DNA of 64,000 nucleotides from Euglena gracilis (GCA_039621445.1 CP154954.1:23882954-23946953); one strand, 5' to 3'. Shown: positions 274 to 62,018, numbered from the stretch's first letter. Notes: generated by a model from the sequence alone, not told the origin. Numbers and translations are program-made.

Positions 274-3200
274 CACTCCAGAGCAGATGGAGGACCGGCA
301 CACCATTTTCTGCACCTTGGCCCCCACCGGGTCGATGACCAGGAACCCGTTGCACGTCATATCCTGGCACGCACACACGCGGTTGTTCACCATCGAGTAC
401 TTGCACGTCGGGTGGGCGCAGCTGTTGCACGCCATCGCTGCGGAGGGGACGAGGTGGTGGAGCGCTGCCTGGGCTCTGTTTTTGCACGGTTTTTTGAACT
501 TTTACACTGCTTCCAGGGCGGGAAATTAACAAATCTCCCCACCCACATGACACACTCAAAGATAACAAAAAAGCAACGAAATTGGCCGGCTCCGTCTCCG
601 GACCTGGGTCTCGGTCTGGGCCTGGGGGGGGGGTTCTGGGGGGGGGGTACGTACCTGGGGTACAACCCCCCCCCAATACCTGTTGTACCTGTCCAGGTCC
701 TGGGGGGGTACACACAGGTACCCCCCCAGTACGCAGGGGGGGGTACATACCTCCCTCACACCGGCGCCGACAAGGCCTATGTCTAAATAGGTACGCACCC
801 CCCAGTACCTGTTGTACCTATACAGGTACACGCAGGTCCTGGGGGGGTACACGCAGGTCCTGGGGCGGGTCGGCATAGGTCCTGGGGGGGTACACGCAGG
901 TCCTGGGGGGTACGCATAGGTCCTGGGGGGTACGTACCCCCCCACACCGGCGCCGACAAGGCCTATGTCTAAATAGGTACGTACCCCCCCCAGTACCTGT
1001 TGTACCTATACAGGTACACGCAGGGATACACAAAGGTCCTAGAGGGTACATATAGGTCGGCAAATCCCTTGTGTTTCCAAGTCATTTTGGTGGGCAATTC
1101 CCTTGTGTTTCCAAGTCGTTTTGGGGGGCAAATCCCTTTTGTTGTCCAATTGCTCGGGGCCCCAAAATAACAAAATCCCTTGTGTTTCCAAGTCGTTTTG
1201 GGGGACAAATCCCTTTTGTTGCTCAACTGTCGGAGGGCCCCAAAATAACAAAATCCCTTGTGTTTCCAAATCGTTTTGGGGAGCAAATCCTTTTTGTTGC
1301 TCAACTATTGGAGGGCCCCAAAGTAAAAAAATCCCTTGTGTTACCAAGTCCTTTTGTTGTGTACCTGCGTGTACCTGTACAGGTACACGCAGGTCCTGGG
1401 GGTACGTACCCCCCAGTACCAGCTTGTACCTGTACAGGTACACGCAGGTCCTGGGGGGTACGTACCAGGTACGTACCCCCCAGTACCTATCGTGTACCTG
1501 CTTGTACCTGTACAGGTACACGCAGGTCCTGGGGGGGTATGTACCTGTTTAGACATAGGCCTTGTCGGCGCCGGTGTGGGGGGGTCGGACCTGGTACGTA
1601 CCCCCCCCCCTGCGCGCCTTGTACCAGGTACGTACCTCCCCCAGAACCCCCCCCACGGCCAGGCTGCTACCTTGAGGGGCGGTCTATTAACCCGTCCATC
1701 CATCCATCCATCCGTCCATCCGTCCATCCATCCATCCATCCATCCATCCATCCATCCATCCATCCATCCATCCATCCATCCATCCAACCATCCATCCACC
1801 CATCCATCCATCCATCCGTCCACCCGTCCATCCACCGGCATGCCCAACCCATCGACCCACCAGAAACAACTGTGTCAGGACAGACACGGGTGTCTACTGA
1901 ATCTTAGGCGGCCTAACTCGCACTTAGCTTTGAAAATGACTGTAAATTTGCGCCGACGCGCAAATCAAAAAAAAAGTTCTGTTTTCGAACACCGTGGCCT
2001 GAGACTCAGGACAATCTGAAAATAGTGTCTCCCTGCACCCCAGGGCCTGGGGACGAAAGCAACGACTGGGAACTTCACAGTCTACGGGCACAGCGCTCCC
2101 GAGTCCCAGTGTGCATGAACACAAAGCGGCGGGTGATGAAACGAGGGTACTCCATTACTCATTTGCGCTTTGGCACAAATTTTTTAAATTACAAAGAATA
2201 AAACCATTTGCGCTTTGGCGTAATTTTTTTACTTTTTTGTGATTCAACATGTGGGTGACCATTGCCGCACTTGCACAATGATAACAACTTTTGTGTCAAC
2301 ATGTGTTTCCATTGCGCCAAAGTGCAAGGGGTAAGCTCATGAAGAATGGAAAATTAAGAGTTATATTGCGCCAAAGCGCAAGTAGAAATACAATTTTTAA
2401 AATTGCAAAAGCAACGTGGCTTGCGCCGAAGCGCAAATATAACTGTTTAAAACATATCTCACAACGGAGGGAGAGAACGACCCTGGTAGAATATGAGCAC
2501 CAGAGGGGATAGAGCACAAAAATGCAGGACAGGGGGACGGAAACTACTCTCAGTCACGTTGCCTTAAAATTAGTCAACGTTGCGCGTTGGCGCAAGAGCC
2601 ACGCAGCTTTGCGATTTTCAAAGGTGCATTTCTATTGCGCTTTGGCGCAATAGAACTCTTAAATTTTTATCCTTCAAAAGCCTACCCATTGCGCTGTGAA
2701 GCAACAGTTATCAATTTTAATTTCTCACTTTTATCACTGCGGGTGGAGAGAGCAGTCCTGGAAGCATCTCATCACCAGAGCGAACAGAGCTAAGGTGGAG
2801 GGAAGCCTTGCCTGGGACAGGAAGCCAACCCCCTGGTCTGTGAAAACAACCACCAACTTCTTGATATCCAGACGTGTCTTGTCCTATGCGTTGTAAACCC
2901 AACTTCCAGTGCCGGAGGTTCCTCCCACTTGCCTCGCAATTAAGCATGCCTGAGGGGCCCTTCTTTTTGGCCGACTTTTGAAAGTCGGAAAATTTCTGTT
3001 TGGAAAAGAACAGGCAGCAGATGAACCCTGGGAATCACAGCCAAGGAAACAGTTTTGGACGCTGAAAAGGTGTTTTAAAGAAGCTCGTCACCCCCCTTTC
3101 TTCACCCAGGGTTTGAAGCACACAACTTTGGGGATGAGCGAATGGAATTGAGAAATCGACAGGGTCCATCAACAACGGCGGAGAAGGGAAGACATGCTGA

Positions 3201-6200
3201 CACACCTTTTTCGGTAATTTGCAACCCACCAGACAGCCGCATCACACCGGGCAGATGGAGGGCATTATTCAGCCGAAAAAGGTCTTTCTGTCAACATCCC
3301 AAAAAAAACCCCACTTTGTGCACTGAGTGCAAGGTCAGTGAGGCTCCACAGCCTACCGTCCACGATTCGTCTTATTGGAACAGCCACTCCCTCCCCAGTG
3401 CCTGAATAGTTCAGAAGCACCAACTGAGCTTCAGTCACAGCAGCCCTCAAAGGCCCTCATCATTCTCCTCTATCGCCCAACTTCTCACACAGCACGAACA
3501 CTTTCAAATGCATCTGCCACATTGCGCTTAAGCGCAAGTTAAAACAAAAGCCCCTGAGCTTATGGGAGTCCCTCTGATGTGTTACGGTGTGTCGGGGGTC
3601 CCTTTCTGCACGGCCAGTGTGCGGGCTTGGTGAGGAAATACATTGCGCCGAAGCGCGAACCATCATAAATAAAAATGAGAAATGCAAACATGCGGCTGAC
3701 ATGTAATCTGAATGAACAAGCAGTGCATTATGTAAGCATGTCCCTTGCCCTTCGGCGCAATGCATTTCCTCGCCAAGCCAACACACTGGCCATTCAGGGA
3801 GGGGCCCACAACACACCATAACACGTCAGAGGAACTCCCATAAGCTCAGGGGCTTTGTTTTTTAACTTGCGCTTAAGCGCAAATTTTTTAATTTGCGCTT
3901 AAGCGCAAGTTAAAAAAATTGCGCTTAAGCGCAATGTCCATAACCATTGCCTTCTGTGTCTCACCAGACGTTGGAACAGGTCCATGGGCTTGCCCTCAAT
4001 CCCCCCAACCCCACCCAGGGATCACAACTCTGTGACCTGCCGTTTTTTCCAACTCTTCACAACGTGTATGTCTTAGGCGGCCGTGAAGGCACTTAAGGGT
4101 TTTCGGGCCCAAAAACCGGATCGTCCGCGGTTTTGGGACCGGCCGTGGTCAAAACCCCCACTGGGAACGACATGAGCCGAACGCAGGGCGCGATGGCGCG
4201 CACCTGCGCGCGTGAGGACACGTCCGGCGTGCGCACCTGCGCTTGAAACAGACCCCAGAATCAGGCGCAGGTGCGCACGACGGATCAGTAAGATCAGGCG
4301 CAGGTGCGCGTGATCCTACCGTGAGATTGTGGCAGGTGCCTGGGTGCTGGGGCCCCGGAACGAGTGGCGGCAGGGAGGGGGCACACTTTGTTTTGAGGGC
4401 GACGCCTGCAGAACCCACCAATCGCTGCAGGACCGAGAGTCGGTCACCGGAGGACTCCGGAACACACATCAGGCACACGGGGTCCGCAAGCCCACCGCCG
4501 CCGTGTTGGACACCCCCGAGCCAGATGGGCCCACACCCAACACCGAACCGCGCGCACCTGCACCCGGGGACAGGCACACTTCGGTCGCAGGTGCGCACGA
4601 TTGGGGTGTGGACGAGGGACCCCGTGGTGTGGGTTGAACGGCCAGGCCAGAGGGGCGATGCATCCCGCAAGTGTCGTGCGCAGGTGCGCGCGTTGGGGAC
4701 CCCCCTGGTTGTTGCCCACGGCGGCCCCTGTTTGAAACCTGTGGCCGCACACACAACGGAACGTTCGGGGAGCGGGTGTGTCCCCCTTGGGACGTGCACG
4801 CGTGCGTGAGGGACGTGCGAGCACTCGGTGTGGGTGGTGCAGCCAGGTGAACACGTCCGCTATACAACGCCCGACTGCCTCAACGGTGGTCCGGTGCTCG
4901 CATTTGCGCTCTGGGGGCAGCGACGACCTGCGCCGCCAGCACGGACCCCGAGACGTGGGTCCCGAGGGTGACAAGGCAGGGCACGAAGGAACCGTGTCCT
5001 CTAGCGCAGGTGCGCTCCAGGATGCCCCGCAACCGGTGCTTCGGGACCCTTGCCACGGGCCCACCGGCGCAGCACTGGGAACGACGTGAGCCGAACGCGG
5101 GACGCGATGGAGCGCACCTGCACTCGTGAGGACACGTCCGGCGAGCGCACCTGCGCTTGAGCAGACCCCAAAATCAGTCGCAGGTGCGCGCGATGGATCA
5201 GTAAGATCAAGGGCATTCCCACCATCCGGGGTGTTCCATCCGACCCGGAGGGACACCGAGGACGCCTGCCGTCGTCATCCGGTCGCAGGTGCGCAGGCAC
5301 CAGGTGGTTTTCCCTTGGAAACTGTGAATGCTGCGGTCAGTATGAAACCTGCATGCCTTTGACAACCGAAGGGTGCGATGGACAGACACTGAGATACAGA
5401 ACATCCCGGACCAGGTGGGAGGCCCCGGCGGTGCCCGGGACCAGAGTTTGGTACCCGAAAGTCCCCGAAGGAATTTTTCACGGACGCGATGCAAAGCGCG
5501 TTTTGAGGACCTTTGCAAAACCCTATGGAATTTTTGGCTTTTCGCAACAGGCAAGAATTGACAATCTGCCAAAATTTTGCGTCGCATTTTCCTGGGTCGA
5601 AATGGGCCAGAATCCAAATTTGGCGGACCGAAACGACAAAAGTCACAATTTTTCCTTTGTGAGGGGGCAGTTTCCAATCAGTACAGGCAGTGGGGTCTCG
5701 AGAAAATTTCCCCATCCACCGGAGGGCTGCGGACCGGGGGTGGTGCCTTCGATTCCGAACTTTGCGTCGCCCCATGATTTCACATTGGCCATCGATGGGA
5801 TGAGGAAACGACACTTCCCTGCGTTTTCGTTTCCCAGGTGAAAAGGTCTGGTGGGTGATGCCCCCGGCCCTTCCTCCCCTGAAGAAGTGGCGACGGATTC
5901 CGGGTGTCCAGGCTGGGGGGCCCAACTAGGTGAAATCGGCGGCCCACAGGGAGAAGGGGGAGGGCCGTCGGGAAAAGCCAACCCCGACGCCAGTTGCGGG
6001 CGGGGTGTGAGTCCGTCCGCAGACACAAGACCCGGGGTCCTGCTTGTTCAACGCTGCCAGCAACCCTGCCCCGACGACCTCAACCACGGGTGAACCTCCG
6101 CCGCCTGGGGGCTGGGGAGTTCAGGAGAGAAGACCCGGGAGCTATCCAGGCCCCCGGACAGGGCGCTGGTTGTGGTGGCGTCGGCGGCCAGGGCACCGGG

Positions 6201-9200
6201 TGTGATCCCCACAGGGATGGAGCGCGTTGGATTGGAGCGCACCTGCGCACGAATCTGCCCCTCCCTGCTCCCCATCTTGAACCCACCCACCGAATGCATA
6301 GGAGACACAAGGTGTCGTGCGCACCTGCGCGCGTTCGGGCCCAGCTCCCTCCATACGGTGATGGGCGACGGTCCTCGCCCATCGGCCTCCCACCCTCTGC
6401 CGTCACCGGAGATTTGCACACCGCCTGACCGCTAACAGTGACGGTGCTGCAGCGGCTGCAGGGAGGGGAGCGGCCTCGAGTGGTGTCGGTCGCACCTGCG
6501 CGCGCGGTCACGCCCACAACGGGCGTTGCTGCAGTCCGGCCAGGCGGTGCTGCCCGTCCCAGCCACGCCCGACCCCTCTGGAGGGCTTGGCCGTGGCCCC
6601 ACGGCCAAGCCCTCAGAGCCTGCAAAGCCTCCTCCCCCTCAGTCCGGCGCGCGCACCTGCGCCTGACAGCCCCCCCTTGCGCCCTCGCGGGAATGCCCTC
6701 CCGCCCGAGAGCACGTCCCCTGTGGGCACACAATCGCGCGCACCTGCGCACGCAGCACTGTCCCACACACAGGGTTGGCTGTAGACTCATGTATGGGGTG
6801 GCTGGTGTGGGTAGCACGCACACGAGGGGGGCTGGTCCGGCACGCTCGCCCGCTCCCCTTTCGCACCCCCAATTGGGGCAAGGATGGAGCTGTGTGTGCA
6901 CCGGGAATGTGGCCTGGCGGTGAGGTGCCGGCGAGCAGCACGCGGGCGGCGGCACCCCCCCCCCCCCCCCCCCCCTGGCCCTCCGGTCCCACGACACACC
7001 CCTTGATCACACACCTGCGTGGCCCTTGTCGACCGGGACACTCTGTGCGAACGATTGGGCCGTCCCGCCTCACCCACGGCCAAAACACCCCTCCTTTTGG
7101 CAAAGGAAAAAATCTCACGGAAACGTTCCCCGAAGAGCACGCCGCCGCCACGCTTTCACCCTCGGACTTCGCTTCCCCTCCCTTTTGGCCTTCCCCAGTT
7201 GGTCCCATTCCCTCTTCCCGCCGGCTGCCCAGCCACGGCACCCGGAGTATCCTCGCCCACCTCCCAAACCGCACTTTTGAGGCTACCCCTTCCCCCCCCC
7301 CCCCCTCCGGCCTCGAAAGTGCGCCAAACGCTTTTCGGGGGGTGCCAAAGAATCAAGCGCAGGTGCGCGCAAGCCGGCAGGAGAAAGCGTCCGCGGTCCG
7401 CGGCCTGCCGGGCTTTCGGGCACCGTCGGGCATCGATTTTTTTTGATTTCGGCCGCCGGCGTGGGTTTCAGACACGGCCGGCAACAGTCGGTGGACACCA
7501 AAAAACCGGCCAAAAAAAGCGTCCTACACGCGGTCTGCCGGGGTGCAAACCCCGGTAAACCAAAAACAGCGGGACACAAAAAACGAGAAGCCAGCGCCGG
7601 CCAGGGTTTCAAGCACGGCCACCCCCAAAACCGCGGACGCAAAATTGCATTCGGTCTCCTCGGGCGCACCTGCGCCCAAATCGGAAAAAAACCCTTAAGT
7701 GCCTTCACGGCCGCCTAAGTATGTAGAGTCCACCCTCTGGATGCCTCAGCAGGCAACCCTTCAGGCACACATCGCAGAGCCTAAAAAAAAAGCAACAAAA
7801 AGTGCCAAATGTCACCCAGCCTGTGTGGCACCATCCGGGGAACACTGTCAAAGCTTCAAAAACGAGGGACTCGCAACGGGGGTTTCGGCCCTTTTTTGGG
7901 AAAATTCACGTGTCCCAGCGGTCAAATCCAGGGTTTTGACCCTTTTCAAAATGGTGCACAGGCTGAAAAACAGGCTGAAAAAAAAACACCAAAATTAGGC
8001 CTGTTCCCCAGGTCCCAACATCGGAAAATGATGCACACGCCACCGTGGAGGGTCTCCGCGGAACCAGGGGGTCAAAAGGATGGGTTCTACCGCCGGGTTT
8101 CAAAAAGATCGAAAATTTGCGCGAAAGCGCAAACTAAAAATCAAAACCTTAAGTGCGAGTTAGGCCGCCTAAGTGAATCTGCTGTCAGAAATTAAAAGAA
8201 ACACACATGTACACACGTGTGCAGAGACAAACACACCTGCACATCCACACACATACACATACACACCCAGACACACCTTTTCACCTCTGGTTTAAAATAA
8301 TCATGTAACCCCCCCAAGACCCGAACAATAAGACCCACCGATTTTTTCGATTTTCGACCTTTTTGACCCGAAATCTGTGGGTTTCGGGTCACCAGGGGTC
8401 AAAAACGGGGCACCAGGGGTCGAAAAACGCTCATTTTAGGCTCAAAAACAGTTTTTCTGGGGTCCCCAAGAAGACCCCCCTCCCTGATGGCGCAAAGCGC
8501 CAGAGACAGTGAATTTTTCCTCTGAAAAATTACCAAAAACCCCAATTTAAGATGCAAAAAAATGAAGGAATTCCAAAAATTTTGGGATTTTTGACTTCAA
8601 AAAAAAAACATGGAAAAAAGTCAATTTGTACCAAATTTACATGGGGCGCGAAAGGCCAAAGAACCTGAAAAAAAAATTATTCGGGCCCGGATCGGTCAAC
8701 AAGGAATCCAAAAATAAGACCCCCCAAAAATAAGACCCAGGTCTTATTTGGGGGGGGGGGGTTAACCATGCAATAAAGAAATGGGCACGGAGCAGCATGG
8801 CACTGGCACACTGGCGGCGGCATCCTCGAACGGCGGGTTGTTGTAGCAGTACGGGCACAGGGTATACGCCTTGTTCTCCCCGCCCTGCTGGTACACCACC
8901 AGCTGGAAGCCGTCGAGCGGGCACTCGATTCCCTTGTACTCCTGGGGAGGAAGGAAACCTCGAGGCACAACGTGGCCTGTTGACAGAGAGTTGACAGGAT
9001 TTCAAAAAAAATGTGTGGAAGCTGAAAGAGAGTCCGACTGCTGGGGCCGAAGCAGCCAACTGGCGTGGACAAGCTTGGTGGAGTGGACCACATTCGGTGG
9101 GCAAATCAAGAACTGCACTGCAAAAAAAAAAAACTGCAAAAAAAACCGCAAAAGAATGCTCTTCAAGTCTGTATCGATTGCTCAATACAGCAGTACAGAC

Positions 9201-18200: not shown

Positions 18201-21200
18201 AACGGGTGCGCGCATTTTAAGGACGTAGTTTCGGACCCCAAGGGGTGCGCACTTATTAGGGCAGTGCACACTTTTTAGGGCAAAGCCAAAAATACTGACA
18301 TTACCCCCACTCTTTTTCAAATTTCTCCCCAATTTTATGATTTCAAGCTATGAGTCAACTGACTATGTGTCAAATGTGTCAAATTTGGGGTTGGACGATA
18401 TAAATATTTGGTCCGAGAAGGATAGTTCTGAGAAATGTGTGTGCTTTCCGACCTGAGATGTGACAGTGATTTCTCCTTTGGGGGGGTGCGCACTTTTTAG
18501 GGAGGTAATTTCGGACCCTTGGGGGGTGCGCACTTATTAGGGCACTGCGCACAATTAGGGCACTGCGCACTTATTAGGGGGGGTTTACAAAGGTGCCCAT
18601 AATTCCAGTCTGTTTGTGGAAAAAATGAGGTGCAGAGTATTGCCTGCCATGATGTATTTGCTGACTTAATAATATCCAGGGGCATATGGTACAAAACCCT
18701 GACTGACACGTTCTTTGGCAAACGTGTCAGATGTGCTGTACAAACACCTCGAATTTGTGGACGCTGTGTTTTCACTGTCGTCTTGTCTCAGTGATCCTAA
18801 TTAAAGGGCAACAAAAAATGGTGGTTAATTGTGGATCACTTGTGACATCGTGAATGAACAAATTGTCTTGTTCCTTTGCTCATTTCTCGCACAAGGACCA
18901 CTCAAAAGTACCAACAATATTCACAGGGAGGGGGTCCAGATTATGGGAATACAAGAGAGATGAGAACACGGTTTTAGAACATCAACTTTCCAGTTCCGAA
19001 AACAGACTGGCAAAGGAGGATATTGGTTGGTTTTAACATGGTTCCTTTGTGAATCAGAAAACTGTTTTTGCTGCTGTATGGGTGTCCAGAGCATCAAAAC
19101 AAGTGAGGTGATGTGGCCGACCTGCCACATCGCGTCGCTTAGCGACCCCCCCCCCCCGGGTCCAGGTTAGAGGCTGCAAAATTCAGGCTGGCTAGAAATA
19201 GACTGCCGGCTGGCCCCCCACCTCCCTCTCATTGTGGTCCCCCAAATGGAACGGGCCCGAATGGAGTCAAAGTGCCCCAAATATGCAAAAAAAGGCGGGT
19301 TATGCAAAAAATTGCCCTAGAATTTTGACCTCGCCAGCCTTTTTTGAGAATTTTTGGCGCCCCCAAACGGCCAAAGGTGCTATTTTGGGCACTTTTGGGC
19401 AAAAAAAAATGTCAAAAAAATCGGTGCAAAGCACCTGAAAGACAAATTTGACCCTTTTTGGGGGGGTCCTGAGTCCCCCCCCCCCCCCCCGAGGGTCGGT
19501 CCGGACCCCCTGGGCAGGGGGGGGGGGGTGGTCCAGACCCCCATCCGGTACAGGAAGGGGGGGGGTACACCCTTCTTATATCGAACTCTGTTCAGGCCCC
19601 GGGGGTCGAACCTCCCCCGTGCAAACACTTACAGGGACCCAGGGTCTGTTTCAGGGTTAGTTGGTTCAAGTACCTCGCAGGGCCGGGTATTGGGCAGTGA
19701 CGCTCCGGGGGCCGGGGGGCGGGGGGGCACGCCCAGGGCCCCGCGGCTGACACACCGCCAGGAGGCGCCGAGCTCGTTCTCCGTCGCGCTGCGCATCGGG
19801 GTGATGGGCGGGTGGTCGCCCACGTCCACCCCGCCCCGGGGGGCGCTGACCCCCTCCTTCAGCATCGCCCGCACGTACCCGCCGTACACTGTGGGGGCGA
19901 CACGGGGCTCCACGCACGGAGGCCCGGGCGCGCAGGGGGGTGGACAGGGTCCTTGGCCGCAAAGGGTGATGGTCAGGTGTGTTGATAGCAGAACGACAAT
20001 CAAATTGTTGATCAGGCGCAGTAAACCCCTCAAATATAAACCCCGGCTGATAAAGCCCGGCCACTTCTAAACAAATTCTCCCTCGCGGCGACCCAACAAA
20101 AAGACAGCTTTTAACCCCTTCTCGTGGTGAAGAGAAATGAAAGGCACCGGGATGGGATTGGAACACGGCGGCGGCCCCCCGCAGGTCGAACGAGGGGTGG
20201 AACTTGGTGCTCTCCGTCCGGGGGTAGGAGATGTAGCCCGCGGTGTACAGCTGCTCCGCCATCTGCCGGGAGGCACGGGCACGCCGCGATGCGGAGGGGG
20301 CATGGCCGGGTGGCTGGTTTCTTGGCCGCCAGACAAAAAAAACAGACCCGGGGGGAAACAGGGGCGAGCAAAGATGAGCTGGGTTTTGAAGCCCTGGTCA
20401 TGCACAAATAACTTCAAGAACAAGTGCGTTGACCCCAAGGTCATCGGCAACACAGAAAAAAAATGGACGGAACCAGGGCATAAATTTTTTACCAACCCCC
20501 GGGGGGGAGGGGGATCACCCCACTCTTCGAAAAACCAGTCAGTCCCTTTTTAGGGGAAACCAGTCACTCACTACCCCTCCCCCCGAGGAGGGGGGTCGGC
20601 CACTCTTAAAGCCAAATAAATTTGGCCAAAAACATGGAAAAGGCCAAAAAAAATTCCGGCGCCTTTGGCACCGGGTCACTTTAGTGGTTTTTTGCCGCCC
20701 CCCCCCCCCCGGGGGGAGGGGGTCCGGGCCAAAACCCAGTCAGTCACTCTGAAAAAAACCAGTCACCCACCCCGGGGGGGGGGGTCGGCCAGTGGTTAAA
20801 TGATTGCATGGACCAGGGAGGGGGTTGTGATGGGAGGGGGGCGACATCCCAGAGCCAGGGCTGTTTGGGAACGCCTGGTGGGGGGCGGCAACCCCCCACC
20901 ATGGCACTGCCCGAAGAAATTCCTTAGGCGCAAAAAGCAAAATTAGACCGAAAAAACTGTGCGCTGTATGGGAAGGGGTGGGGGGGGTCAGACCCTCCCA
21001 CCCACCAGGATGGGGATGGGGTGGGGGGTCGACTCCCCCACCCACCACCCAGAGGTTTGCGGGGATTCCCGCACAGCCCTGTGGACGGCTCAGAAGAACC
21101 TCAGCCCCATGATACCCGCATCGCCTCGTGGGGCCCGATGCCCAGGCGCGTGGACGCCGCCTTCAGCATCTCCACCGTGTTCATGCCCCCTGGCTTGCTC

Positions 21201-27200: not shown

Positions 27201-29673
27201 GTTGGGACCCACTGACCCACCCCTGGGGGGGGGGGGGCAGGCGGGCTCGGGACTACTTTTGGGGGGGTCAAGCTTGGGTCAAAAAATATTTTTTGGGGGG
27301 CAGTTGATGTCAAGGATCAAGGAAATTCCCCCCGCTGGGGGGACTACTCGGCCCGATCCACCTCCGGGGGGTGGGCGGGTCGGGCATACTATCCACCTTT
27401 AAAAGAAAACCTCCAGCAGGAATGGGAGAACCCGTAGGGAACCGCGGCGCTTTTGGCACACTCTGCCCCGGGAAAATTTCGCAGGAAAGGGACTGCTGGC
27501 CCAACCATTGTCCAGAGCAGACCCACCCCCAAGTGACAGAATGACGACTGGGGAGCCTGACCACCCCATTCCACACCCCCACCCACCCACCACAGTATCC
27601 CGCAAAGAAGAATTCCTTTGGTGCCGAAGGAATATTCTGACCTAAAAATCCGCACCCCGGAAACATGGGAAGGGGTGGGGAAGGGGTCGGACCCAACCCA
27701 CCCACCACCGACTGAAATCGGCCAAATATATTTTTGCAACAAATCACGGGTGGGGACAGAAGAGGAAACGATAAACCAACAGCAGCACATAGCAAAAAAA
27801 GCGTGGCATATGTTGGAACAAGTGACGCTTGTTTGGAAGTTCAGGTGGACCCATCAATTATAGAACCCATTGAATAAAAAGAACAGTAGAATGAGACTGC
27901 AGCAGCTCACACACGACAGGTGGCTGCAGGGGTCAGGAACCCACCTTGGTACTCATGGATGGTGCACGGCTTTGATATGCCCTTGCGGGAGGTGTACTTG
28001 AGCGGCAGCCACCTGCACCTTTCTCAGGTGGGGGGGGGGGTGCTGTGATTGCCGCGAACCACAAATGCGCTGGGTGAGGAGTAAACTCCAGAAATCCCAG
28101 GAAATGGGAGAGAGTCGGTTCCATTCCTCAGCAGCCACAATGCAGCCACTTTCATTGGATGACGTTGTAGGTCTCTCAAACAGGCTGAATTTGACCAACC
28201 CCGGGGAGGATGGGGGTATCAGAGTGACCTGGAGTGCCTGGGCAGGCACTAACTAACCCCCCCCCCCGGGTCGGTGCCTGCCTGGCCAAAAAGTGCCAAA
28301 AATGGCCTTTTGGGCTTCCAGAGCCAAAGGCAGGGGCGGGGGGGAATTGCACATCGGGGGGTCAAAAATTGCAGTGCAAAAAAATTGCACAAAATTGCAC
28401 AAAATTGCACAAAATTGCACAAAATTGCACAAAATTGCACATACTTGGAGATTACATTGGATCCCTTGTAACGAGCATGCACGCATACACCTGCTTGGAG
28501 AATCATCTTGTTCCTTTCTCAAAAACATCCAGAAATGACAGCGCGGCACAGCAAAACAATGGGGCAAAAATGCTCCACAAATAGTTCACTCCCTGCCGGT
28601 GCAATACCTTCTCGGCACAGGTTGAGAAAGTATCAAAGAGACCTGGGCAGGGGACTCAAGATAGGGTTTGCACACTGAGTAAACCAACAATAAACAGCCT
28701 TTGAACGGAAATTTTAACTCCGCACATGAGTTTCCGAGCAAAAAAAAAAACAGGTAAGTTCTCAATTGCATCAAAAACTGACATTTTCCAAAACAAAATA
28801 TCCTGGGCCATGTGCAATTAATTGCACCAAATTGCAAAAATTGCACGGTGCAATTTTCTCCCCCCCCCCCCCGCCAAAGGCACCGGAAATGCCTTGGCCG
28901 CGTGCCCACGAACTTTTGGCAGTGTGCCCCCCGGGGGGTCGGATCTGGGTGCCTTGGAGTGCCTGCCCAGGCAGCCCCCCCCCCCCCCCCTGGGGGTGGG
29001 TTGGGTGGGGTGGGTTAATATTCAGCAGGGTCTCAAACCCAAACATTCGCGAGACGTGGGAGTCCCCAACGGGACCACATTTGGAGGGCGGGAGGCAGGG
29101 GCCTGGGGGCCGTGGGACAGGATCTCGGCGATGGACTGCGCCAGGCTGGGCTTCTCCGCCACCATCGGGGCCGGGCATCGCTGGGCCTCTCCCGGGGATG
29201 GCCGGAACGTTGTGGCCAGCGGTTTGGAGAGAGGGTGGGCATGAGGCGGGGAATGGGCGGGGGTGAGAGGGAGCAGGATGCGGCGTGTTGGTCAGCAGAG
29301 GAACCTTGGGTGAATGGCAGAAGCAGAATAAGAAGCTCGCCAAATTCAGCGAAAGTTTGGCCACTATATTTTTTTGAAAAAAAATTCAAAACACTCCCCA
29401 AAAAGTCTGCCACATAATAACCTCGCCCCCCGGGAGACCACGTATTTCAAACCTCTCCGAAACGCGCGGGTATGATGCACATTCTTCAAAAAAGAAGCAG
29501 CAGAAGAATAAATTCTTTTGCTGCTTCTGGGAGAAAGAAATCCCAGAAAATAAAATTCGGGAACATCGTTTCAAAGTGCAATAGTCGACGTATTGTGGGA
29601 CCCGAAAATCGTGCAGGGACACATGGGACATGCATTCTGATGGCAGCCATGCCAGGGACAAAATGGTTTTCAT
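274..29673 (-). CDS. TOP3B: DNA topoisomerase III beta (type IA), 27 exons; 3' end uncertain (last exon may read on to a stop at 244-246 or splice to exons left of the window)
   Basis: Exons joined in frame with consistent phases: 29659-29673 (MKTIL), 29109-29165 ([19 protein letters not shown]), 27945-27999, 27080-27140, 26137-26201, 25754-25806, 25149-25223 ([17 protein letters not shown], Toprim), 23864-23961, 23356-23416, 23159-23241 ([15 protein letters not shown]), 22643-22725 ([12 protein letters not shown]), 22189-22298, 21684-21742, 21116-21200, 20148-20262 (GYISYPRTE, catalytic Tyr), 19756-19888 (GDHPPITP), 17102-17275, 15697-15814 ([16 protein letters not shown]), 15416-15491 ([21 protein letters not shown]), 14849-14907, 14375-14467, 14009-14066, 12663-12713, 12421-12478, 12138-12204, 8812-8941 ([15 protein letters not shown]), ~274-437 ([14 protein letters not shown]; Cys-rich C-terminus). 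Colinear with human TOP3B as I recall it. Confidence 0.96.
616..1662. mobile_element. Inverted-repeat-bounded element with internal tandem arrays
   Basis: Ends GGGGGTTCTGGGGG..GTACGTACCTGG / CCAGGTACGTACC..CCCAGAACCCCC; arrays of GTACACGCAGGTCCTGGGGGG and a ~60-80 bp AATCCCTTGTGTTTCCAAGTCGTTTTGG unit (~1060-1355). No clear TSD. Confidence 0.6.
1693..1835. repeat. (CCAT)n tetranucleotide microsatellite
   Basis: Direct reading. Confidence 0.95.
3519..3938. repeat. Foldback/MITE-like inverted repeat inside element A
   Basis: Arm TTGCGCTTAAGCGCAAGTTAAAACAAAAGCCCCTGAGCTTATGGGAG.. mirrored at ~3826-3882, with extra TTGCGCTTAAGCGCAA copies to ~3938. Confidence 0.75.
4072..7719. mobile_element. TIR DNA transposon 'B' (CTTAGG family) nested in A
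   Basis: 32-bp perfect TIR CTTAGGCGGCCGTGAAGGCACTTAAGGGTTTT; 5-bp TSD TATGT (4067-4071 and 7720-7724); internal ~135-bp direct repeat (~4160-4297 and ~5073-5210). Confidence 0.93.
9744..10080. mobile_element. ~330-bp MITE family with AACCAGTCAGTCACT motifs (related copies ~15090-15395, ~20480-20807, reversed ~59593-59860)
   Basis: Ends CAATTGCTTA..TAAGCAATTG; shared internal CCGACCCCCGGGGG and AAAACCAGTCAGTCACT blocks in all copies. Confidence 0.75.
10482..11749. mobile_element. hAT-like non-autonomous element
   Basis: TIR CAGACATTCATTT; degenerate 8-bp TSD ATATGCAG/ACATGAAG; subterminal TTTTGGTGTCCAC arrays at both ends. Confidence 0.7.
18177..18588. mobile_element. MITE with TIR GTAAACCCCCCCCTAATAAGTG
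   Basis: Terminal inverted repeat and internal GTGCGCACTTATTAGGG repeats. Confidence 0.65.
28000..29108 (-). other. Nonconventional intron 2 of TOP3B
   Basis: Joins ILSHG to KYTSRKG. Ends CCC-CAGGCCCCTGC ... GCAGGTGGCTG-CCGCTC; 9 of 11 bases pair; no GT/AG option keeps the frame. Confidence 0.8.
28181..29029. mobile_element. hAT-like MITE (CAGGCTGAATTTGACCAAC family; other copies start at 16743 and 47716) with a nested insertion at ~28331-28872
   Basis: TSD CTCTCAAA/GTCTCAAA. The nested unit is flanked by GCCAAAGG and carries an (AAAATTGCAC)n array at ~28365-28440. Confidence 0.65.
29166..29658 (-). other. Nonconventional (non-AG) intron 1 of TOP3B
   Basis: Needed to join MKTIL to MVAEKPS. 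Ends (G)TCCCTGGCATGGCTG ... CAGCGATGCCCGGCCCC(G); 11 of 13 terminal bases pair. Junction can slide 1 nt. Confidence 0.85.
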
Positions 29674-29698
29674 GGCGGCCAAGGAGAAGAAGGGAGGC

Positions 29699-29712
29699 CT
29701 GGGAAAAGGGAA
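29699..29712 (-). promoter_or_regulatory. Candidate spliced-leader trans-splicing acceptor of TOP3B
   Basis: Pyrimidine tract TTCCCTTTTCCC-AG ending 25 nt upstream of the ATG at 29673. SL trans-splicing is general in Euglenozoa; use of this site is inferred. Confidence 0.45.
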
Positions 29713-30183
29713 GCATGCTTGTTGGTTGTTTGCTGCGCAACACTCAGCGTTAGGGAGCGTTGACAAGAGGGGAACCCGGACATTGTGGACCTTCAAACCA
29801 AGCACAACCTTGAAAAGGCGGTCGTGCCCATCCCCAATCCTGGGTGTAAATGGTGGAATGTGAGGAGGATGAATGAGTCACATAAAGTCCTTGATACAGC
29901 CAGAACTTAAAATTATTCAAAAATGAATAAAATGAAGAAGAGGAGGAAAAGGAAAATAGGAGGAGGAAAAAAAAACTGTTTCGGCTCATCTTGATAAATT
30001 ATTGAGCCCAAAACATCTTTGATTTTCTGGGGTTTTTTTATTTTTTTTTGAATTGCAGCATTTTCATAGAGCGGACTTGCAAACAAAAATCAGTTTTTGG
30101 TGTGATGATTACATCACAGTTCTAAAAGTGGAATGATAAACAAGGTCATTGAGGGTTAAAAAAAAACAGCCTCAGCGCAATCA

Positions 30184-33100
30184 CTTAGGCGGCCGGATTC
30201 GCACTTAAGCTTTTTTCCTTTGGATGCGCGCAATTGCGCAAATGTACCATTTTTTTGTAACCCCTGGGACCCTGTACCCTGACACCCAGAACACGATTTA
30301 AGAACCGTTACACCCATCTATTGGAGGGGATTAACTCCCAGTGGTCTGGTGTGCATGCTGCTTACCAGGTGACGTTAATAGGGCTGGGGGTGAGACTGGT
30401 GCTGTTGTACATCAAACGGGAGAGAGGCACACACCTCTTGTGACGACACTTGGAAACGGTGCTGACGTGCTGGCTAAACTGGCTGTGATACTGCCACCAC
30501 CGGTGAGAACACACGGGGCCTCATTAGATCACACCACCACAGACACACAGACTACGTGAGGCAGCCGTCACGCAACTGATGTGTGTTTGTGCGCGCAATT
30601 GCGCAAATAAAAACAATTGTGTTTATGGGCGCATTTGCGCAAATAAAACGTACACCGATGATGTTAAAATGACGTGTTGGTGGGCGCAAATGCGCGCACA
30701 AACACATTTGGTGGTGTGCGCATTTGCGCAAATGCGCGCACCAACACGTTTATGTTTACTTGCGCAAATGCGCCCACCAACATGTACTTTTACTTTCTAT
30801 GTTAAAAGACACCAATGAGGACCATGACCGTACGAGGTTTAAAAACGTGATTGGCGTGTTGGTGCGCGCAATTGCGCAAATAAACACAATTACGTTTGTG
30901 CGCGCATTTGCACAAATGCGCGCACAAACACTTTATACACCGCTTCAAAATGATGTGTTTGTAGGAGCCTTAGAGCACACAAACAAAGCTGTGTTTATTT
31001 GCGCAAATGCGCGCATCAACACACACGAGTTGTGCGATACCATCTCCTCCTCCGTGATAGCTGGCGAACGCAACTCCTCACGCCAACCAATGGTTTGCGC
31101 CACAATTACATGCTGATGAAATTTGTGGTGAGAGGTGGTGTGGAGTGTTCACTGGAACATGGCATGTGGCTGGCCAAAATTTGCCTGCCTTACGTGTGTA
31201 CATTTGTACTGCTGTTACCCGGCCCACACGACCTGTTCCTTTGGTGTCTTCTGTTTGGCAGTTAAACATCATGAATTGATGACATGCAAACGACCTGTGA
31301 CTGTTGGACACCTTTTCTGCAACAGGACTGCGTTACAAGAAGACAAAATTTGGCACCTGAAATGCCCGGGACGTGTCGGGGCGGAGTCCGTTTTACGGTT
31401 TTCTTTGCCATTTTTCCCTTGAAAAAACGTAAAAAAAACACCGGTTTTTGCGCATAATTTGGGGGGAGTGGGTCCCACCGCTTTGATGCACCCAATCCAG
31501 GGGTAAAGGCTCAACACTTCCTTGCATCCAAAGGAACGGGTGCTTGAGGGCTACCTCTCTCCGGCTGCTGGTTGCCATGCACTGGCACCACGTCATACCC
31601 CCCAGTCTTACACCCTGGTTGCGGGGTATAACGCGGTCGCTGTGGTGGGTGTCGTTGCACCGGGGAAGTGGATGCTGGCCTGTTGGGTGCTGAAGCATCA
31701 GCAGCTGATGGGGCTTTAACAGCGGAGCCCAGGCCGCAGGTCAGTGGCAGGGCCCTTGGGACCCAAAAATTGGGGCCGGTGGACGTGTACCGTTACTGGG
31801 TGGCTGTGCACCCACTTTCAGGACATCCTTTGTCTCAACCTTTCCTGGGACCTGTCAATGGCCCAAAAACGGCACCATAACACCATGTGCCGGAGGAGAC
31901 GGTGTGGTCATTTGCTTTCAACCCATTCAGAAGCCACTAAGGGTAGCAGTAGGAGGACCAAATGAAGTCGCTTTTTACTCCTCCATTGGTTGTTTATTTG
32001 CGCATTTGCGCGCATCTCGTTGTTCGTGGGCGCAAATGCGCAAATAAACATAGTAAATTGTGCAGTTTCTTCATACAGTTTATTTGCGCATTTGCGCCCA
32101 CAAACAACGTGATGCGCGCAAATGCGAAATAAACCACATCTCGAGCTGGTGTTTGACGGTTGTGTTTCCGTCACACCGTTCTTATTTGTGTTTATGGGCG
32201 CAAATGCGCGCACCAACAAAAATTATGTTTTATGCGCGCATTTGCGCAAATTTTGCGCAAATGCGCGCATACAACATAATTTTTGTTGGTGCGCGCATTT
32301 GCGCCCATAAGCTTGCGCCGTTGACAAACAGTGTGACAAACTCACCAACTGGATGGCCCGTCAGTCTGTACCGTCAGGGCCTCTATGTCACGCAGTTTTT
32401 CAACGGCGTCAGTTCATGGGTGCCAAAGCCCAGCACAGGAAGGACAAAATTGTGTTTATGCGCGCAATTGCGCGCATCAACATGAACATGTTGGTGCGCG
32501 CATTTGCGCGCATAAACACAATTTTGTCCTTCCTGTGTTGGGCTTCTTCTGCTGGGTTCTTTGCCACACAACTGGTTCTGCGCATCCCGGGTATAAGCCG
32601 GGTGGGAGACACCCGTTCCCCTTCATTCCCTTCATTCCCTGCGGACCCCATTTCTTCCCCCCTGCGCTTCCCTTGCCCAACACCCCACACTTACCCTCCT
32701 TCCCCAGTGTCCTTGTCGCCGGCTTGGTCACACCACACCCACACCCCCCCGGCACCTCCTCCCCGCGCTTTAACAAACAGCCCCAGAACACCACACCAAG
32801 GCGCCGCAAGCAAAGCAGTCCGGCAAACACCCAGGACACACACCGCTGGCAGCTCGGACACATCCAGGGACACAGCCGAAAGAAGCAACAAGGGCAGGAA
32901 AGGTCCCGTTCCTATGGTGCTTTTTTGCGTTCTTTTCCCTTTCGGCCGGCAAGGTCCCGGGGGTTTCGACGTACAAAGTCCATTCTGCGGACACCCCAAA
33001 AACACCATTTTTCGCCAAAGTCCCGGGGGTCTCACCGCCAAAAACAGAATTTTGCTCGTTTTTTGCACTCTCTTGTCAACGTGTTTTCAAACCCCCCTGA

Positions 33101-33204
33101 CCTTCACAGCCGAAACAAAGCAGAATAAAAAAAAATCTCTCGTAAATTTGCGCAAATGCGCAAATAAAAAGAAAAAAGCTTAAGTTCGAATCCGGCCGCC
33201 TAAG
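30184..33204. mobile_element. TIR DNA transposon 'C' (CTTAGG family) between GLO1 and TOP3B
   Basis: 34-bp TIR CTTAGGCGGCCGGATTCG(C/A)ACTTAAGCTTTTTTC with one mismatch; 5-bp TSD AATCA (30179-30183 and 33205-33209). Confidence 0.93.
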
Positions 33205-33418
33205 AATCAGTGCAGAAGACAAGAGCCACCAAGTCCAGACGCCAGCGTAAGCAAAGAAATGGAATAAAGACGCACGTGAGATCAGCCATCTCTGCAACCT
33301 GCCGTACACAAAACCAACTCGCAGTGGGGAAAAAAAACTTTCGGATGTGCGGGGCTGGATTATGGCGCGTTGCATCGTGCGGCATCCCGCCTGGAGGCCA
33401 GGGGGTTGTGGCGCGGAG

Positions 33419-45468
<12,050 letters not shown>

Positions 45469-61708: not shown

Positions 61709-62018
61709 CATGCTTGTGCTTACCGACCGGGGGGGGAGGGGGGGGGTGGGTGCTATAGGGTGCCTGCCCCTAGCAGGCACACCCCCCCCGGGGGGGGGAT
61801 AGGGGTCCGGGCCGGACCCAGAAAATTTTCATTGAAAATGGCCTTTTCCGGGCCCCCGGCGCCTTCGGCGCCGGGGTCGGAGGGGGGTGCCTGCTAGGGG
61901 CAGGCACCCCCCAAAACCCTACCCCCCCCGGGGGGGGTCGGATCGGGTGCTATGGGGTGCCTGCCCCTAGCACCCACCCCCCCCCCGTGGGGTAGGCACC
62001 TGACTAAGCGCAAGCCTG
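61709..62018. mobile_element. hAT-like MITE, sister copy of 34675-34988
   Basis: Same TIRs and body; TSD ATCATGAA/ATCACGAA. Confidence 0.88.

What the first reader, a model, noticed from the sequence alone, without database searches (positions are those of the whole stretch)
1903..33204. Each CTTAGG element is seeded with its own GCGC-N4-GCGC motif
Seen: A carries GCGC(CAAA/TTAA/TTTG/CGAA)GCGC (e.g. 2368, 3524, 8119). B carries GCGCACCTGCGC or its reverse (e.g. 4198, 4231, 4265; at least a dozen copies). C carries GCGC(AAAT/ATTT/AATT)GCGC (e.g. 30228, 30684; dozens). The motifs are dispersed through the whole element, not only subterminal, and I did not notice them in flanking host DNA. Inference: conserved geometry with a subfamily-specific spacer suggests binding sites for a dimeric transposase or accessory protein, or a chromatin/DNA-modification signal carried by the element.
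Basis: partly seen in the sequence, partly recalled or inferred. Interest (0 to 1): 0.75.

Follow-up and report, generated by a model that had tools for sequence, protein, structure and literature searches.

The report
Private palindromic repeats inside CTTAGG transposons
Three gene-less jumping elements each carry many copies of their own version of a short GCGC....GCGC palindrome, one copy sitting about 50 bases from almost every tip, which most likely marks where the enzyme that moves them binds; it is a real but fairly ordinary kind of transposon feature.

Summary
GCGC-N4-GCGC occurs 52 times (0.48 expected). 44 copies lie in three CTTAGG-ended elements with 5-bp target duplications (A 1903-8173, B 4072-7719 nested in A, C 30184-33204), 8 in a GC/GT microsatellite, and 0 in the other 54 kb. 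Spacers are element-specific: B has ACCT/AGGT in 13 of 14, C has AATT/ATTT/AAAT in 19 of 19, and A is variable within TTGCGC-N4-GCGCAA in 10 of 11.

New here:
- A copy is centred 49-53 bp from the tip at 5 of 6 ends.
- The three elements resemble each other only in their terminal 57-83 bp.
- The motif clusters have no target duplications of their own.
- Stems show no compensatory changes.
- A and B are multi-copy mobile families.

Best reading (0.5): these are paired half-sites for the cognate transposase's DNA-binding domain, comparable to the subterminal repeats of Hermes, and they have multiplied inward. Binding is not shown, and no transposase lies in the window.

Main rival: the internal copies are neutral by-products of palindrome-driven duplication.

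Earlier notes of this scan report the CTTAGG group at three other places in the same genome; the lines shown to me do not mention this motif.

The parts
1903..8173 (+). Element A (2,618 bp once B and its duplication are removed). Ends are CTTAGGCGGCC-TAACTCGC-ACTTA. The 5-bp target duplication TGAAT lies at 1898-1902 and 8174-8178.
   Evidence: Sequence read and core matches. In one search, 125-130 contigs per DNA run run off at 8173 into unlike flanks (agreement 0.33). Word depth there is about 0.2-1.5 million, so the family is very high copy.
4072..7719 (+). Element B (3,648 bp, 65% G+C), nested in A. It has a 32-nt perfect TIR and the target duplication TATGT at 4067-4071 and 7720-7724.
   Evidence: I1 shows the 100% complementary TIR. 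joints 4065>7719, 4067>7721 and 4068>7722 each skip 3,653 bases (3,648 + 5) in DNA contigs of both runs and in RNA reads. Other A copies therefore have the empty site.
30184..33204 (+). Element C (3,021 bp). Ends are CTTAGGCGGCC-GGATTCGC-ACTTAAGC. The target duplication AATCA lies at 30179-30183 and 33205-33209.
   Evidence: Sequence read, core matches, and I12 (38-nt arms, 95% complementary).
1948..1963 (.). A-left subterminal palindrome TTGCGC-CGAC-GCGCAA, centred 53 bp from the tip.
   Evidence: It folds as a DNA hairpin at -8.6 kcal/mol.
8117..8132 (.). A-right subterminal palindrome TTGCGC-GAAA-GCGCAA, centred 49 bp from the tip.
7661..7678 (.). B-right subterminal palindrome GGGCGC-ACCT-GCGCCC, centred 50 bp from the tip. 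B-left has no counterpart; its nearest copy is centred 122 bp in.
   Evidence: One contig of another B copy covers 4072-4314 without gaps (record 6), so at least that copy also lacks the motif at the left end.
30228..30239 (.). C-left subterminal palindrome GCGC-AATT-GCGC, centred 50 bp from the tip.
33147..33164 (.). C-right subterminal palindrome TTTGCGC-AAAT-GCGCAAA, centred 49 bp from the tip.
2163..2707 (.). A internal cluster 1: eight 16-19-nt units (four exact, four decayed) at 45-, 54- and 55-bp spacings. Part of it forms a 70-nt inverted repeat (2312-2381 / 2635-2704).
   Evidence: (D3, D4, I2).
3519..3937 (.). A internal cluster 2: a 419-bp inverted-repeat module bounded by TTGCGCTTAAGCGCAA units. 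It includes a 26-bp x3 tandem array at 3858-3934.
   Evidence: (I1, I3-I6, I12), and (no target duplication longer than 2 bp).
4188..5294 (.). B internal cluster 1: 12 sites within one mismatch of GCGCACCTGCGC, in both orientations, with 33-34-bp spacing in two sub-arrays. The block 4159-4302 is duplicated at 5073-5215.
   Evidence: (D3, D7).
6237..6749 (.). B internal cluster 2: five sites, all in the ACCT orientation, within flanks unrelated to one another. One further site lies at 7357-7368.
30584..31021 (.). C internal cluster 1: about ten copies of a 26-30-nt quasi-palindromic unit, often 36 bp apart.
   Evidence: D1, D2, D3, I2, I6, I7.
31991..32518 (.). C internal cluster 2: about ten units arranged as three near-perfect long palindromes (31991-32136, 32192-32310, 32426-32545).
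   Evidence: I3 98%, I4 95%, I5 90% complementary. In one search they fold at -66 to -78 kcal/mol with z-scores of -14.6 to -18.

Best explanation
The GCGC-N4-GCGC palindromes are the cis-acting recognition sites of the CTTAGG transposons. Each is a pair of GCGC half-sites whose centres lie 8 bp apart, read by two copies of a sequence-specific DNA-binding domain of the cognate transposase or a partner protein. All three elements here are gene-less passengers, so the protein must be supplied in trans.

How I think it works:
- The first 27 bp (CTTAGGCGGCC, 8 variable bases, ACTTAAG) is the cleavage and tip-recognition part.
- A T-rich stretch follows, then one palindrome centred about 50 bp from the tip. 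This palindrome anchors the protein beside the tip.
- The same unit, in the element's own version (its own spacer and flanks), has been copied many times further inside. There it adds binding sites for a multimeric transposase.
- The private spacer and flanks would keep co-resident subfamilies tied to their own protein.

Shown here:
- the enrichment of the motif inside the elements;
- the private versions per element;
- the fixed subterminal position;
- that the termini are the only similarity between the subfamilies;
- that A and B are multi-copy mobile families.

Inferred:
- that a protein binds the palindromes;
- that this protein is the transposase;
- that the internal copies are used.
For: 1. 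Enrichment: 44 of 44 non-microsatellite hits lie in 9.3 kb of elements and 0 in 54 kb outside.

2. Position: the nearest motif centre is 53/49 bp (A), 50/49 bp (C) and 122/50 bp (B) from the tips. In 200,000 random placements, none put a centre 46-54 bp from the tip at 5 or more of the 6 ends; the highest count was 4 ends, in 12 trials. The six ends align as TIR, T-rich spacer, palindrome.

3. Between elements, BLAST finds similarity only in the terminal 57-83 bp, and nothing for A versus B. Yet each element has 11-19 internal and subterminal copies of the same version as its own subterminal site.

4. Core conserved in unrelated flanks. B has 19 sites within one mismatch, all with the asymmetric ACCT spacer, and a flank signal that extends only to about 20 bp (T 13/19, C 14/19, G 17/19 on the left; G 18/19 on the right). 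A strictly kept, non-palindromic spacer is not needed for a hairpin.

5. Sequence is kept, not pairing. There are 23 one-sided single changes and only 1 'compensated' form, which is an off-register overlap; the background is 14 in 54.7 kb. In C the three half-site flank types (TGC 15, TTT 14, TGG 7) combine so that the outer positions pair less often than under random combination (6 observed against 9.9 expected, 4 against 7.0).

6. Family level: at 2323 this copy has T, while 94 and 86 contigs in the two DNA runs have C. That restores GCGC in the decayed unit at 2314-2325 (table 3).

7. The elements are passengers: no Pfam family hit in the 11 ORFs of 150 aa or more inside A and B or the 2 inside C (13 of the 68 scanned), and their translations look like GC-rich noise.

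8. Precedent, from passages read in PMC10368747. Two BED domains of the Hermes transposase bind cooperatively to a quasi-palindromic pair of 4-bp subterminal repeats beside the TIR and need AT-rich context. The motif recurs 17 and 14 times in the two ends.
Against: - No transposase or other DNA-binding gene lies in the window, so binding is untested.
- Most copies lie 260-1,500 bp from the tips. That is deeper than the tip-concentrated sites described for Hermes.
- B-left has no copy at about 50 bp.
- Within this copy the units decay like other DNA: there are 23 one-mismatch forms.
- Signs of palindrome-driven mutation could explain the internal copies without any function. One search shows three near-perfect 119-146-nt palindromes made of units. 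Searches show loop 'flips' between otherwise co-oriented copies. One search shows family rearrangement joints that end at motif copies.
- Unrelated repeats outside the elements carry similar GC palindromes with 3-nt loops. This hints at a cause wider than one transposase.
- The private-spacer rule rests on three elements.
Confidence: 0.5

Rival explanations
1. Mutational by-product. Only the subterminal copy, if any, has a function. The internal copies are neutral products of palindrome-prone DNA dynamics: fold-back or template switching at short inverted repeats, slippage, and abortive gap repair after excision. These processes copy the subterminal unit inward and build ever larger palindromes.
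For: - Units sit inside long inverted repeats: A has arms of 116 and 70 nt, and C has 59-nt arms that are 90-98% complementary with 1-28 nt between them.
- There are tandem arrays: 26 bp x3 and spacings of 54-55, 33-34 and 36 bp.
- A block of about 144 bp in B carrying four units is duplicated.
- Spacers are flipped between co-oriented copies: 4671-4701 versus 6312-6342, and 30992-31017 versus 31991-32016.
- Family contigs have joints that end at units: 3936>8136, 3656>4031, 7679>6231, 2660>2715, and 2319>2692 on opposite strands. These are five of the rows shown; 457 more joint rows were not shown.
Against: - In B most of the 19 sites share only about 20 bp with each other, while their flanks are unrelated. 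Recent block duplication would carry the flanks along.
- Three subfamilies with unrelated interiors all reached 11-19 copies.
- The majority letter of the A family restores an internal unit.
Confidence: 0.28
2. Structural signal. The units act as DNA hairpins or cruciforms, or as RNA stem-loops in the element's transcript. For example, they could serve replication or repair, RNA processing, or small-RNA production, and they would be recognised by shape, not by sequence.
For: - Every unit can fold. The 22-30-nt units give -6.1 to -12.2 kcal/mol as DNA, and 6 of 8 fold better than all but 1-4 of 200 shuffles.
- In A the 4-nt spacer varies while the stem is kept.
- Loop flips suggest hairpins form in vivo.
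- The A family is transcribed, about 10:1 from one strand in the stranded run X24.
- Other repeats hold GC stems with 3-nt loops.
Against: - No compensatory stem changes were found (1 off-register case against 23 one-sided changes).
- The outer stem positions in C pair less often than chance.
- B keeps a non-palindromic spacer in 19 of 19 sites.
- Two subterminal units fold no better than many shuffles (z -1.2 and -1.9).
- No Rfam family matches.
Confidence: 0.12
3. Host-directed mark. The GCGC pairs are read by a host factor, for example as targets for cytosine methylation or chromatin silencing of the element.
For: - GCGC density is 10.7-21.5 per kb in the elements against 2.85 per kb outside.
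- Related GC palindromes occur in other repeat families.
Against: - No modification or chromatin data could be examined.
- Private spacers and flanks and a fixed distance from the tip are not expected for a general host mark.
- Changes among family reads are ordinary transitions in both directions (places_by_kind_of_change). There is no CpG-only decay.
Confidence: 0.05
4. Secondary insertions. The motif copies belong to small unrelated MITEs that landed inside the CTTAGG elements.
For: Clusters are bounded by inverted repeats, and the window is full of other small repeats.
Against: - None of the 9 internal inverted-repeat modules has a flanking direct repeat longer than 2 bp.
- Motif-rich bins of A have the same or lower word depth than motif-poor bins (0.22-1.53 million against 0.70-1.15 million). 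They are therefore not independently more abundant.
- The same unit forms the subterminal site next to the TIR at 5 of 6 ends.
- No N4 unit lies outside the elements.
Confidence: 0.03

Closest known systems
Subterminal repeats (STRs) of the hAT element Hermes, bound by the transposase's BED zinc-finger domains (PMC10368747; abstract and passages read)
   Same: In both, short half-sites lie beyond the TIR and are arranged as a quasi-palindrome beside the tip. Hermes has many further copies in both ends (17 and 14), needs AT-rich context, and has two unequal ends. B here is similar in lacking the left site.
   Different: - The half-site here is GCGC with a 4-nt spacer; Hermes has adjoining AAGT/AAGC.
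- The units are longer here (16-30 bp) and reach more than 1 kb into the element, where Hermes sites crowd the first 55 bp.
- The target duplication is 5 bp, not the 8 bp of hAT.
- No protein is known here.
12-bp TnpA-binding motifs of maize En/Spm (CACTA) and AAACGG repeats of Ac/Ds
   Same: Both have many copies of a family-specific short motif, in direct and inverted pairs, inside both ends, and needed in cis. Non-autonomous relatives keep them.
   Different: In those elements the motifs are confined to a few hundred bp at each end and are not built on a GCGC-N4-GCGC palindrome. The TIRs and target duplications also differ (CACTA 3 bp, hAT 8 bp; recalled).
CTTAGG-ended, 5-bp-duplication transposon group noted earlier by this scan in the same genome (e1-7362062, e1-7360158, e1-7359578; AI notes)
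   Same: The terminal letters and the 5-bp duplications are the same, and the families are very abundant. I confirmed the ends, the duplications and the abundance for A and B in my own window.
   Different: Those notes concern the classification and the enzyme (described there as unnamed, Hermes-like or Academ-like). The lines shown to me do not mention the internal palindromes. I could not read their DNA.
Hairpin end signals of IS200/IS605 elements and REP/BIME palindromes of bacteria (recalled)
   Same: Both are short GC-rich palindromes repeated in a genome and recognised by a transposase.
   Different: Those elements have no TIRs and make no target duplication, and they are read as single-strand hairpins. 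The elements here have 24-38-nt TIRs and 5-bp duplications, and their stems show no compensatory changes.

Membership tests
Subterminal transposase-binding repeats of cut-and-paste TIR transposons (functional class) | A short motif repeated in both orientations inside both ends, beyond the TIR | tested here: met
   11, 14 and 19 exact copies, present in both orientations in B and C.
Subterminal transposase-binding repeats of cut-and-paste TIR transposons (functional class) | A copy at a set place beside the TIR at the element's ends | tested here: met
   Centres lie 49-53 bp from the tip at 5 of 6 ends; B-left has 122 bp. None of 200,000 random placements reached 5 ends.
Subterminal transposase-binding repeats of cut-and-paste TIR transposons (functional class) | A motif version specific to the element family | tested here: met
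   Spacers and flanks are private to A, B and C. This rests on only three elements.
Subterminal transposase-binding repeats of cut-and-paste TIR transposons (functional class) | Copies concentrated towards the tips | tested here: not met
   Most copies lie in clusters 260-1,500 bp from the tips.
Subterminal transposase-binding repeats of cut-and-paste TIR transposons (functional class) | Bound by the transposase and needed for excision or transposition | not testable with these tools
   There is no transposase gene in the window and no whole genome is held.
hAT superfamily | 8-bp target site duplication | tested here: not met
   All three elements have 5-bp duplications. For B this is confirmed by the 3,653-base skip.
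hAT superfamily | hAT-type DDE transposase with a BED or other N-terminal DNA-binding domain | not testable with these tools
All three copies are non-coding.
Transib | 5-bp target duplication together with Transib-type termini (the terminal consensus is recalled, not read here) | tested here: not met
   The 5-bp duplication is met, but the termini are CTTAGGCGGCC. That is not the recalled CAC-type Transib end.
Nested MITE insertions | Own TIRs flanked by a target duplication, and copy number independent of the host element | tested here: not met
   None of 9 modules has a flanking repeat longer than 2 bp. Depth in motif-rich bins is not higher than in the rest of A.
Foldback elements | Very long terminal inverted repeats built of tandem subrepeats | tested here: not met
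   The TIRs are 24-38 nt. The long palindromes are internal, not terminal.
Structured RNA or ssDNA hairpin signal | Pairing kept through compensatory changes | tested here: not met
   There is 1 off-register compensated form against 23 one-sided changes. Outer positions in C pair less often than chance. No Rfam match.

The most novel reading that the evidence does not exclude
The palindromes could be private address codes of an undescribed cut-and-paste superfamily. A conserved scaffold of two GCGC half-sites 8 bp apart would be read by a not yet named DNA-binding domain. The spacer and flanks would serve as a subfamily code that keeps several co-resident subfamilies from mobilising each other. 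Arrays reaching more than 1 kb into the element would make high-copy passengers such as A into sinks, or preferred substrates, for their own transposase.

A bolder extension is that GC-clamp palindromes with 3-4-nt loops are a general signal of this genome's repeats and are read by a host system.
Probability: 0.22. Interest if true: 0.6.

Novelty: new variant of a known kind. Interest (0 to 1): 0.4.

Why it matters
The CTTAGG group appears to be an abundant, still unclassified DNA transposon lineage. Word depth for family A is about a million in low-coverage DNA runs. According to earlier notes of this scan, which I did not verify, the genome is of the Euglena type.

Knowing the group's cis-elements gives three practical things:
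- a handle for sorting its subfamilies;
- a way to pair passengers with their autonomous partners;
- defined probes for binding assays with the unnamed enzyme (16-30-bp units with a fixed GCGC-N4-GCGC scaffold).

If the private-spacer rule holds genome-wide, it would be a clean natural example of orthogonal transposase-site pairs. If the rule does not hold, the arrays would instead document how short palindromes breed larger ones inside mobile DNA.

Multi-copy, family-specific binding motifs are a long-known feature of hAT, CACTA and P-type elements. A specialist would therefore find this tidy but not surprising.

Tried and rejected
- Whole genome: none is held for this window (error). Inside-versus-outside counts are therefore for this window only.
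- Metagenome scan for the TIR pattern: 2 loci. Both carry the same stretch with no mate end and no GCGC-N4-GCGC. I judged them unrelated and dropped them.
- Pfam on 68 ORFs of 150 aa or more: nothing inside the elements. The only hits are a topoisomerase fragment and a glyoxalase fragment on the minus strand elsewhere.
- Rfam on the whole window at gathering thresholds: 0 matches.
- Tandem Repeats Finder: only one motif array (26 bp x3) and one 11-bp x2 array. The copies are therefore not a simple satellite.
- A weak CTTAGACGGCC match at 43285-43295 was read and rejected as chance: it has no ACTTAAG and no palindrome. A regex for further ends found only the six known ends.
- Literature string searches for the TIR (234 papers, of which the 20 listed are all cloning-primer contexts) and for the motif (5 papers, unrelated). 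Topic searches gave listings only and showed no paper describing these elements or the motif. PMC12501133 passages mention inverted repeats only at intron ends.
- Earlier-findings look-ups by sequence and by place near the window: nothing.
- Chance or base composition as the explanation: rejected by the per-element shuffles.
Its tables show only the best-supported rows (40 of 754 letter differences, 15 of 472 joints). A per-site conservation profile could therefore not be made.

Full report
**1. What is there**

The window holds three elements that begin CTTAGGCGGCC and end with its reverse complement (a regex found no further ends). Each is flanked by a 5-bp direct repeat.

| Element | Coordinates | Target duplication |
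|---|---|---|
| A | 1903-8173 | TGAAT |
| B | 4072-7719, inside A | TATGT |
| C | 30184-33204 | AATCA |

The six ends share one layout: 11 invariant bases, 8 variable bases (TAACTCGC in A, GTGAAGGC in B, GGATTCGC in C), then ACTTAAG.

None of the three encodes a recognisable protein. Of the 68 ORFs of 150 aa or more scanned against Pfam, 13 lie inside the elements and none has a hit. The translations look like GC-rich noise. They are non-autonomous passengers.

Earlier notes of this scan place the window in a Euglena-type genome. I did not verify that name; the sequencing runs are coded 'organism A'.

**2. The elements are mobile and multi-copy**

I laid two low-coverage DNA runs and two RNA runs on 1500-8600.
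- A has a summed word depth of about 0.2-1.5 million, against about 15-48 thousand for B.
- At 8173, 125-130 contigs per DNA run continue into unlike sequence (agreement 0.33). That is the signature of many insertion sites.
- Joints 4065>7719, 4067>7721 and 4068>7722 skip 3,653 bases, which is exactly B plus one duplication. They appear in contigs of both DNA runs and in RNA reads. Other A copies therefore carry the empty site, and B is a true nested insertion.

**3. The motif is real and confined to the elements**

- GCGCNNNNGCGC occurs 52 times against 0.48 expected.
- 44 copies lie in the elements (A 11, B 14, C 19), 8 in a GC/GT microsatellite at 35649-35746, and none in the other 54 kb.
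- Shuffling each element on its own gives means of 0.04, 0.25 and 0.13. B's high G+C content is therefore not the cause.
- Allowing one mismatch gives 105 matches against 15 expected.

**4. Each element has its own version**

- A: TTGCGC-N4-GCGCAA in 10 of 11 copies, with a variable spacer (TTAA x4, CGAA x2, five others once).
- B: ACCT or AGGT in 13 of 14 exact copies. With one mismatch allowed there are 19 sites, all with that asymmetric spacer, inside a roughly 20-bp near-palindrome.
- C: AAAT x8, ATTT x7, AATT x4, inside a 26-30-nt unit present 20-21 times. One example is 32453-32482.

The subterminal and internal copies of an element are of the same version.

**5. Position**

The nearest motif centre is 53 and 49 bp from the tips of A, 50 and 49 bp in C, and 122 and 50 bp in B. 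In 200,000 random placements, none put a centre 46-54 bp from the tip at five or more ends. B-left has 18 nt where B-right has 48 nt. A contig from another B copy shows the same length there (record 6), so the asymmetry is not private to this copy.

The remaining copies form clusters:
- A: 2163-2707 and 3519-3937.
- B: 4188-5294, 6237-6749 and a single site at 7357.
- C: 30584-31021 and 31991-32518.

Motif-free stretches of about 0.9 kb lie between the clusters. Preferred spacings are 54-55 and 26 bp (A), 33-34 bp (B) and 36 bp (C).

**6. What the subfamilies share**

BLAST between the elements finds only the terminal 57-83 bp for A-C and B-C, and nothing for A-B. The interiors are unrelated, yet each has collected 11-19 copies of its own palindrome.

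**7. Tests between explanations**

*Secondary MITE insertions.* None of 9 internal inverted-repeat modules has a flanking direct repeat longer than 2 bp. Motif-rich bins of A are not deeper than motif-poor ones. I rejected this explanation.

*Structure versus sequence.* The units can fold at -6 to -12 kcal/mol as DNA. However:
- There are 23 one-sided single changes and only one 'compensated' form, which is an off-register overlap.
- In C the three half-site flank types combine so that the outer positions pair less often than under random combination (6 against 9.9, and 4 against 7.0).
- B keeps a non-palindromic spacer in 19 of 19 sites.

This favours reading of the letters over reading of a shape. 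The units are related by descent, though, so the test is weak.

*Function versus neutral spread.* Most B sites share only about 20 bp while their flanks are unrelated. At 2323 the family majority (94 and 86 contigs) has the letter that restores a unit decayed in this copy. Both points suggest maintenance at the family level.

Several observations point the other way:
- The units sit in long inverted repeats, three of them near-perfect and 119-146 nt long (z-scores -15 to -18).
- A 144-bp block with four units is duplicated in B.
- Spacers are flipped between co-oriented copies (4671-4701 versus 6312-6342; 30992-31017 versus 31991-32016).
- Family joints end at units (3936>8136, 3656>4031, 7679>6231, 2660>2715, 2319>2692 on opposite strands).

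Palindrome-driven duplication clearly happens and could account for many internal copies.

**8. Mechanism proposed**

The closest worked-out case I could read is Hermes (PMC10368747, passages). There, two BED domains bind cooperatively to a quasi-palindromic pair of 4-bp subterminal repeats beside the TIR and need AT-rich context. The motif recurs 17 and 14 times in the two ends, and the ends are unequal.

By analogy, I propose the following:
- The palindrome near 50 bp is the anchoring site for two copies of the cognate transposase's DNA-binding domain.
- The internal arrays act as extra sites for a multimeric enzyme.
- The private spacers and flanks tie each subfamily to its own protein.

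Earlier notes call the group's enzyme unnamed and Hermes-like or Academ-like. I could not read that DNA or test this.

My confidence in the binding-site reading is 0.5. The rivals are neutral by-product for the internal copies (0.28), a structural signal (0.12), a host mark (0.05) and nested MITEs (0.03).

**9. Comparison and membership**

The feature works like subterminal transposase-binding repeats. Three defining features are met: repeats in both ends, a set place beside the TIR, and family specificity. One is not met: the copies are not concentrated at the tips. Binding and requirement for transposition are untestable here.

The elements are not hAT by target duplication (5 bp, not 8). 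They do not have Transib-type ends (that consensus is recalled). They are not foldback elements (TIRs of 24-38 nt). They are not IS200/IS605-like, because they have TIRs and duplications.

**10. Novelty**

String searches for the TIR and the motif and three topic searches (listings only) turned up no description. That covers open-access full text only.

The scan itself has noted the CTTAGG group three times elsewhere in this genome (e1-7362062, e1-7360158, e1-7359578). The lines shown to me do not mention the palindromes.

Family-specific, multi-copy binding motifs are a long-known kind of feature. What differs here is the fixed GCGC-N4-GCGC scaffold with private spacers, and its spread more than 1 kb into the elements. 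I rate it a new variant of a known kind, with interest 0.4.

**11. Limits**

- There are only three elements.
- No genome-wide counts were possible.
- No protein was available.
- The read laying tables were truncated to their best rows.

Noticed in passing
34675-34988 and 61709-62018: Two copies of a roughly 315-bp MITE are 96.5% identical. Its central palindrome reads GGCGCC-GAA-GGCGCC in one copy (34823) and GGCGCC-TTC-GGCGCC in the other (61858). The 3-nt loop is exactly reverse-complemented while the flanks keep their direction. This hairpin-loop flip suggests template switching or conversion at palindromes in this genome.
   Followed up: partly
8490, 44360, 52586, 54712, 54836, 60000; and 10781, 34823, 38063, 61858: Other repeat families outside the CTTAGG elements carry GC-clamp palindromes with 3-nt loops: GGCGC-N3-GCGCC (6 copies) and GGCGCC-N3-GGCGCC (4 copies). 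They are often set in A/T-rich context. Short GC palindromes may be a wider habit of this genome's repeats.
   Followed up: partly
1974-3395 and 7662-8135 (family A): In the stranded RNA run X24, reads from the A family lie about 10:1 with the first mate on the + strand (for example 25.7 against 2.9). The other RNA run shows no bias (table 2). The family is transcribed mainly from one strand, either from its own promoter or because of an orientation bias in host transcripts.
   Followed up: no
31991-32136, 32192-32310, 32426-32545: Three near-perfect palindromes of 119-146 nt (90-98% complementary arms, 1-28 nt between them) lie inside element C. They fold at -66 to -78 kcal/mol as DNA. Long perfect palindromes are usually unstable, so these are probably recent.
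   Followed up: partly
1903-1929, 4072-4098, 30184-30210 and the mirrored right ends: The TIR holds two related hexamers 20 bp apart: CTTAGG at positions 1-6 and CTTAAG at 21-26 (CTTAGC at A-left). The TTAA-spacer form of A's motif (GCGCTTAAGCGC, 4 copies) also contains CTTAAG.
   Followed up: no
8373-8600: This is the deepest bin of the laid stretch (word depth about 2.4 million). Hundreds of contigs and reads run off at 8416/8417 and 8457/8461 into a different, fairly uniform context (agreement up to 0.91) (table 7). It is a very abundant short repeat, different from the CTTAGG elements.
   Followed up: no
19669-20397 (-) and 41095-41592 (-): These are the only Pfam signals in the window: a short topoisomerase (PF01131) fragment and a glyoxalase-type fragment, both on the minus strand. 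They are probably exons of intron-rich host genes.
   Followed up: no
1700-1834 and 35600-36250: A CCAT microsatellite directly precedes element A, and a long GC/GT microsatellite accounts for the 8 motif hits outside the elements.
   Followed up: yes
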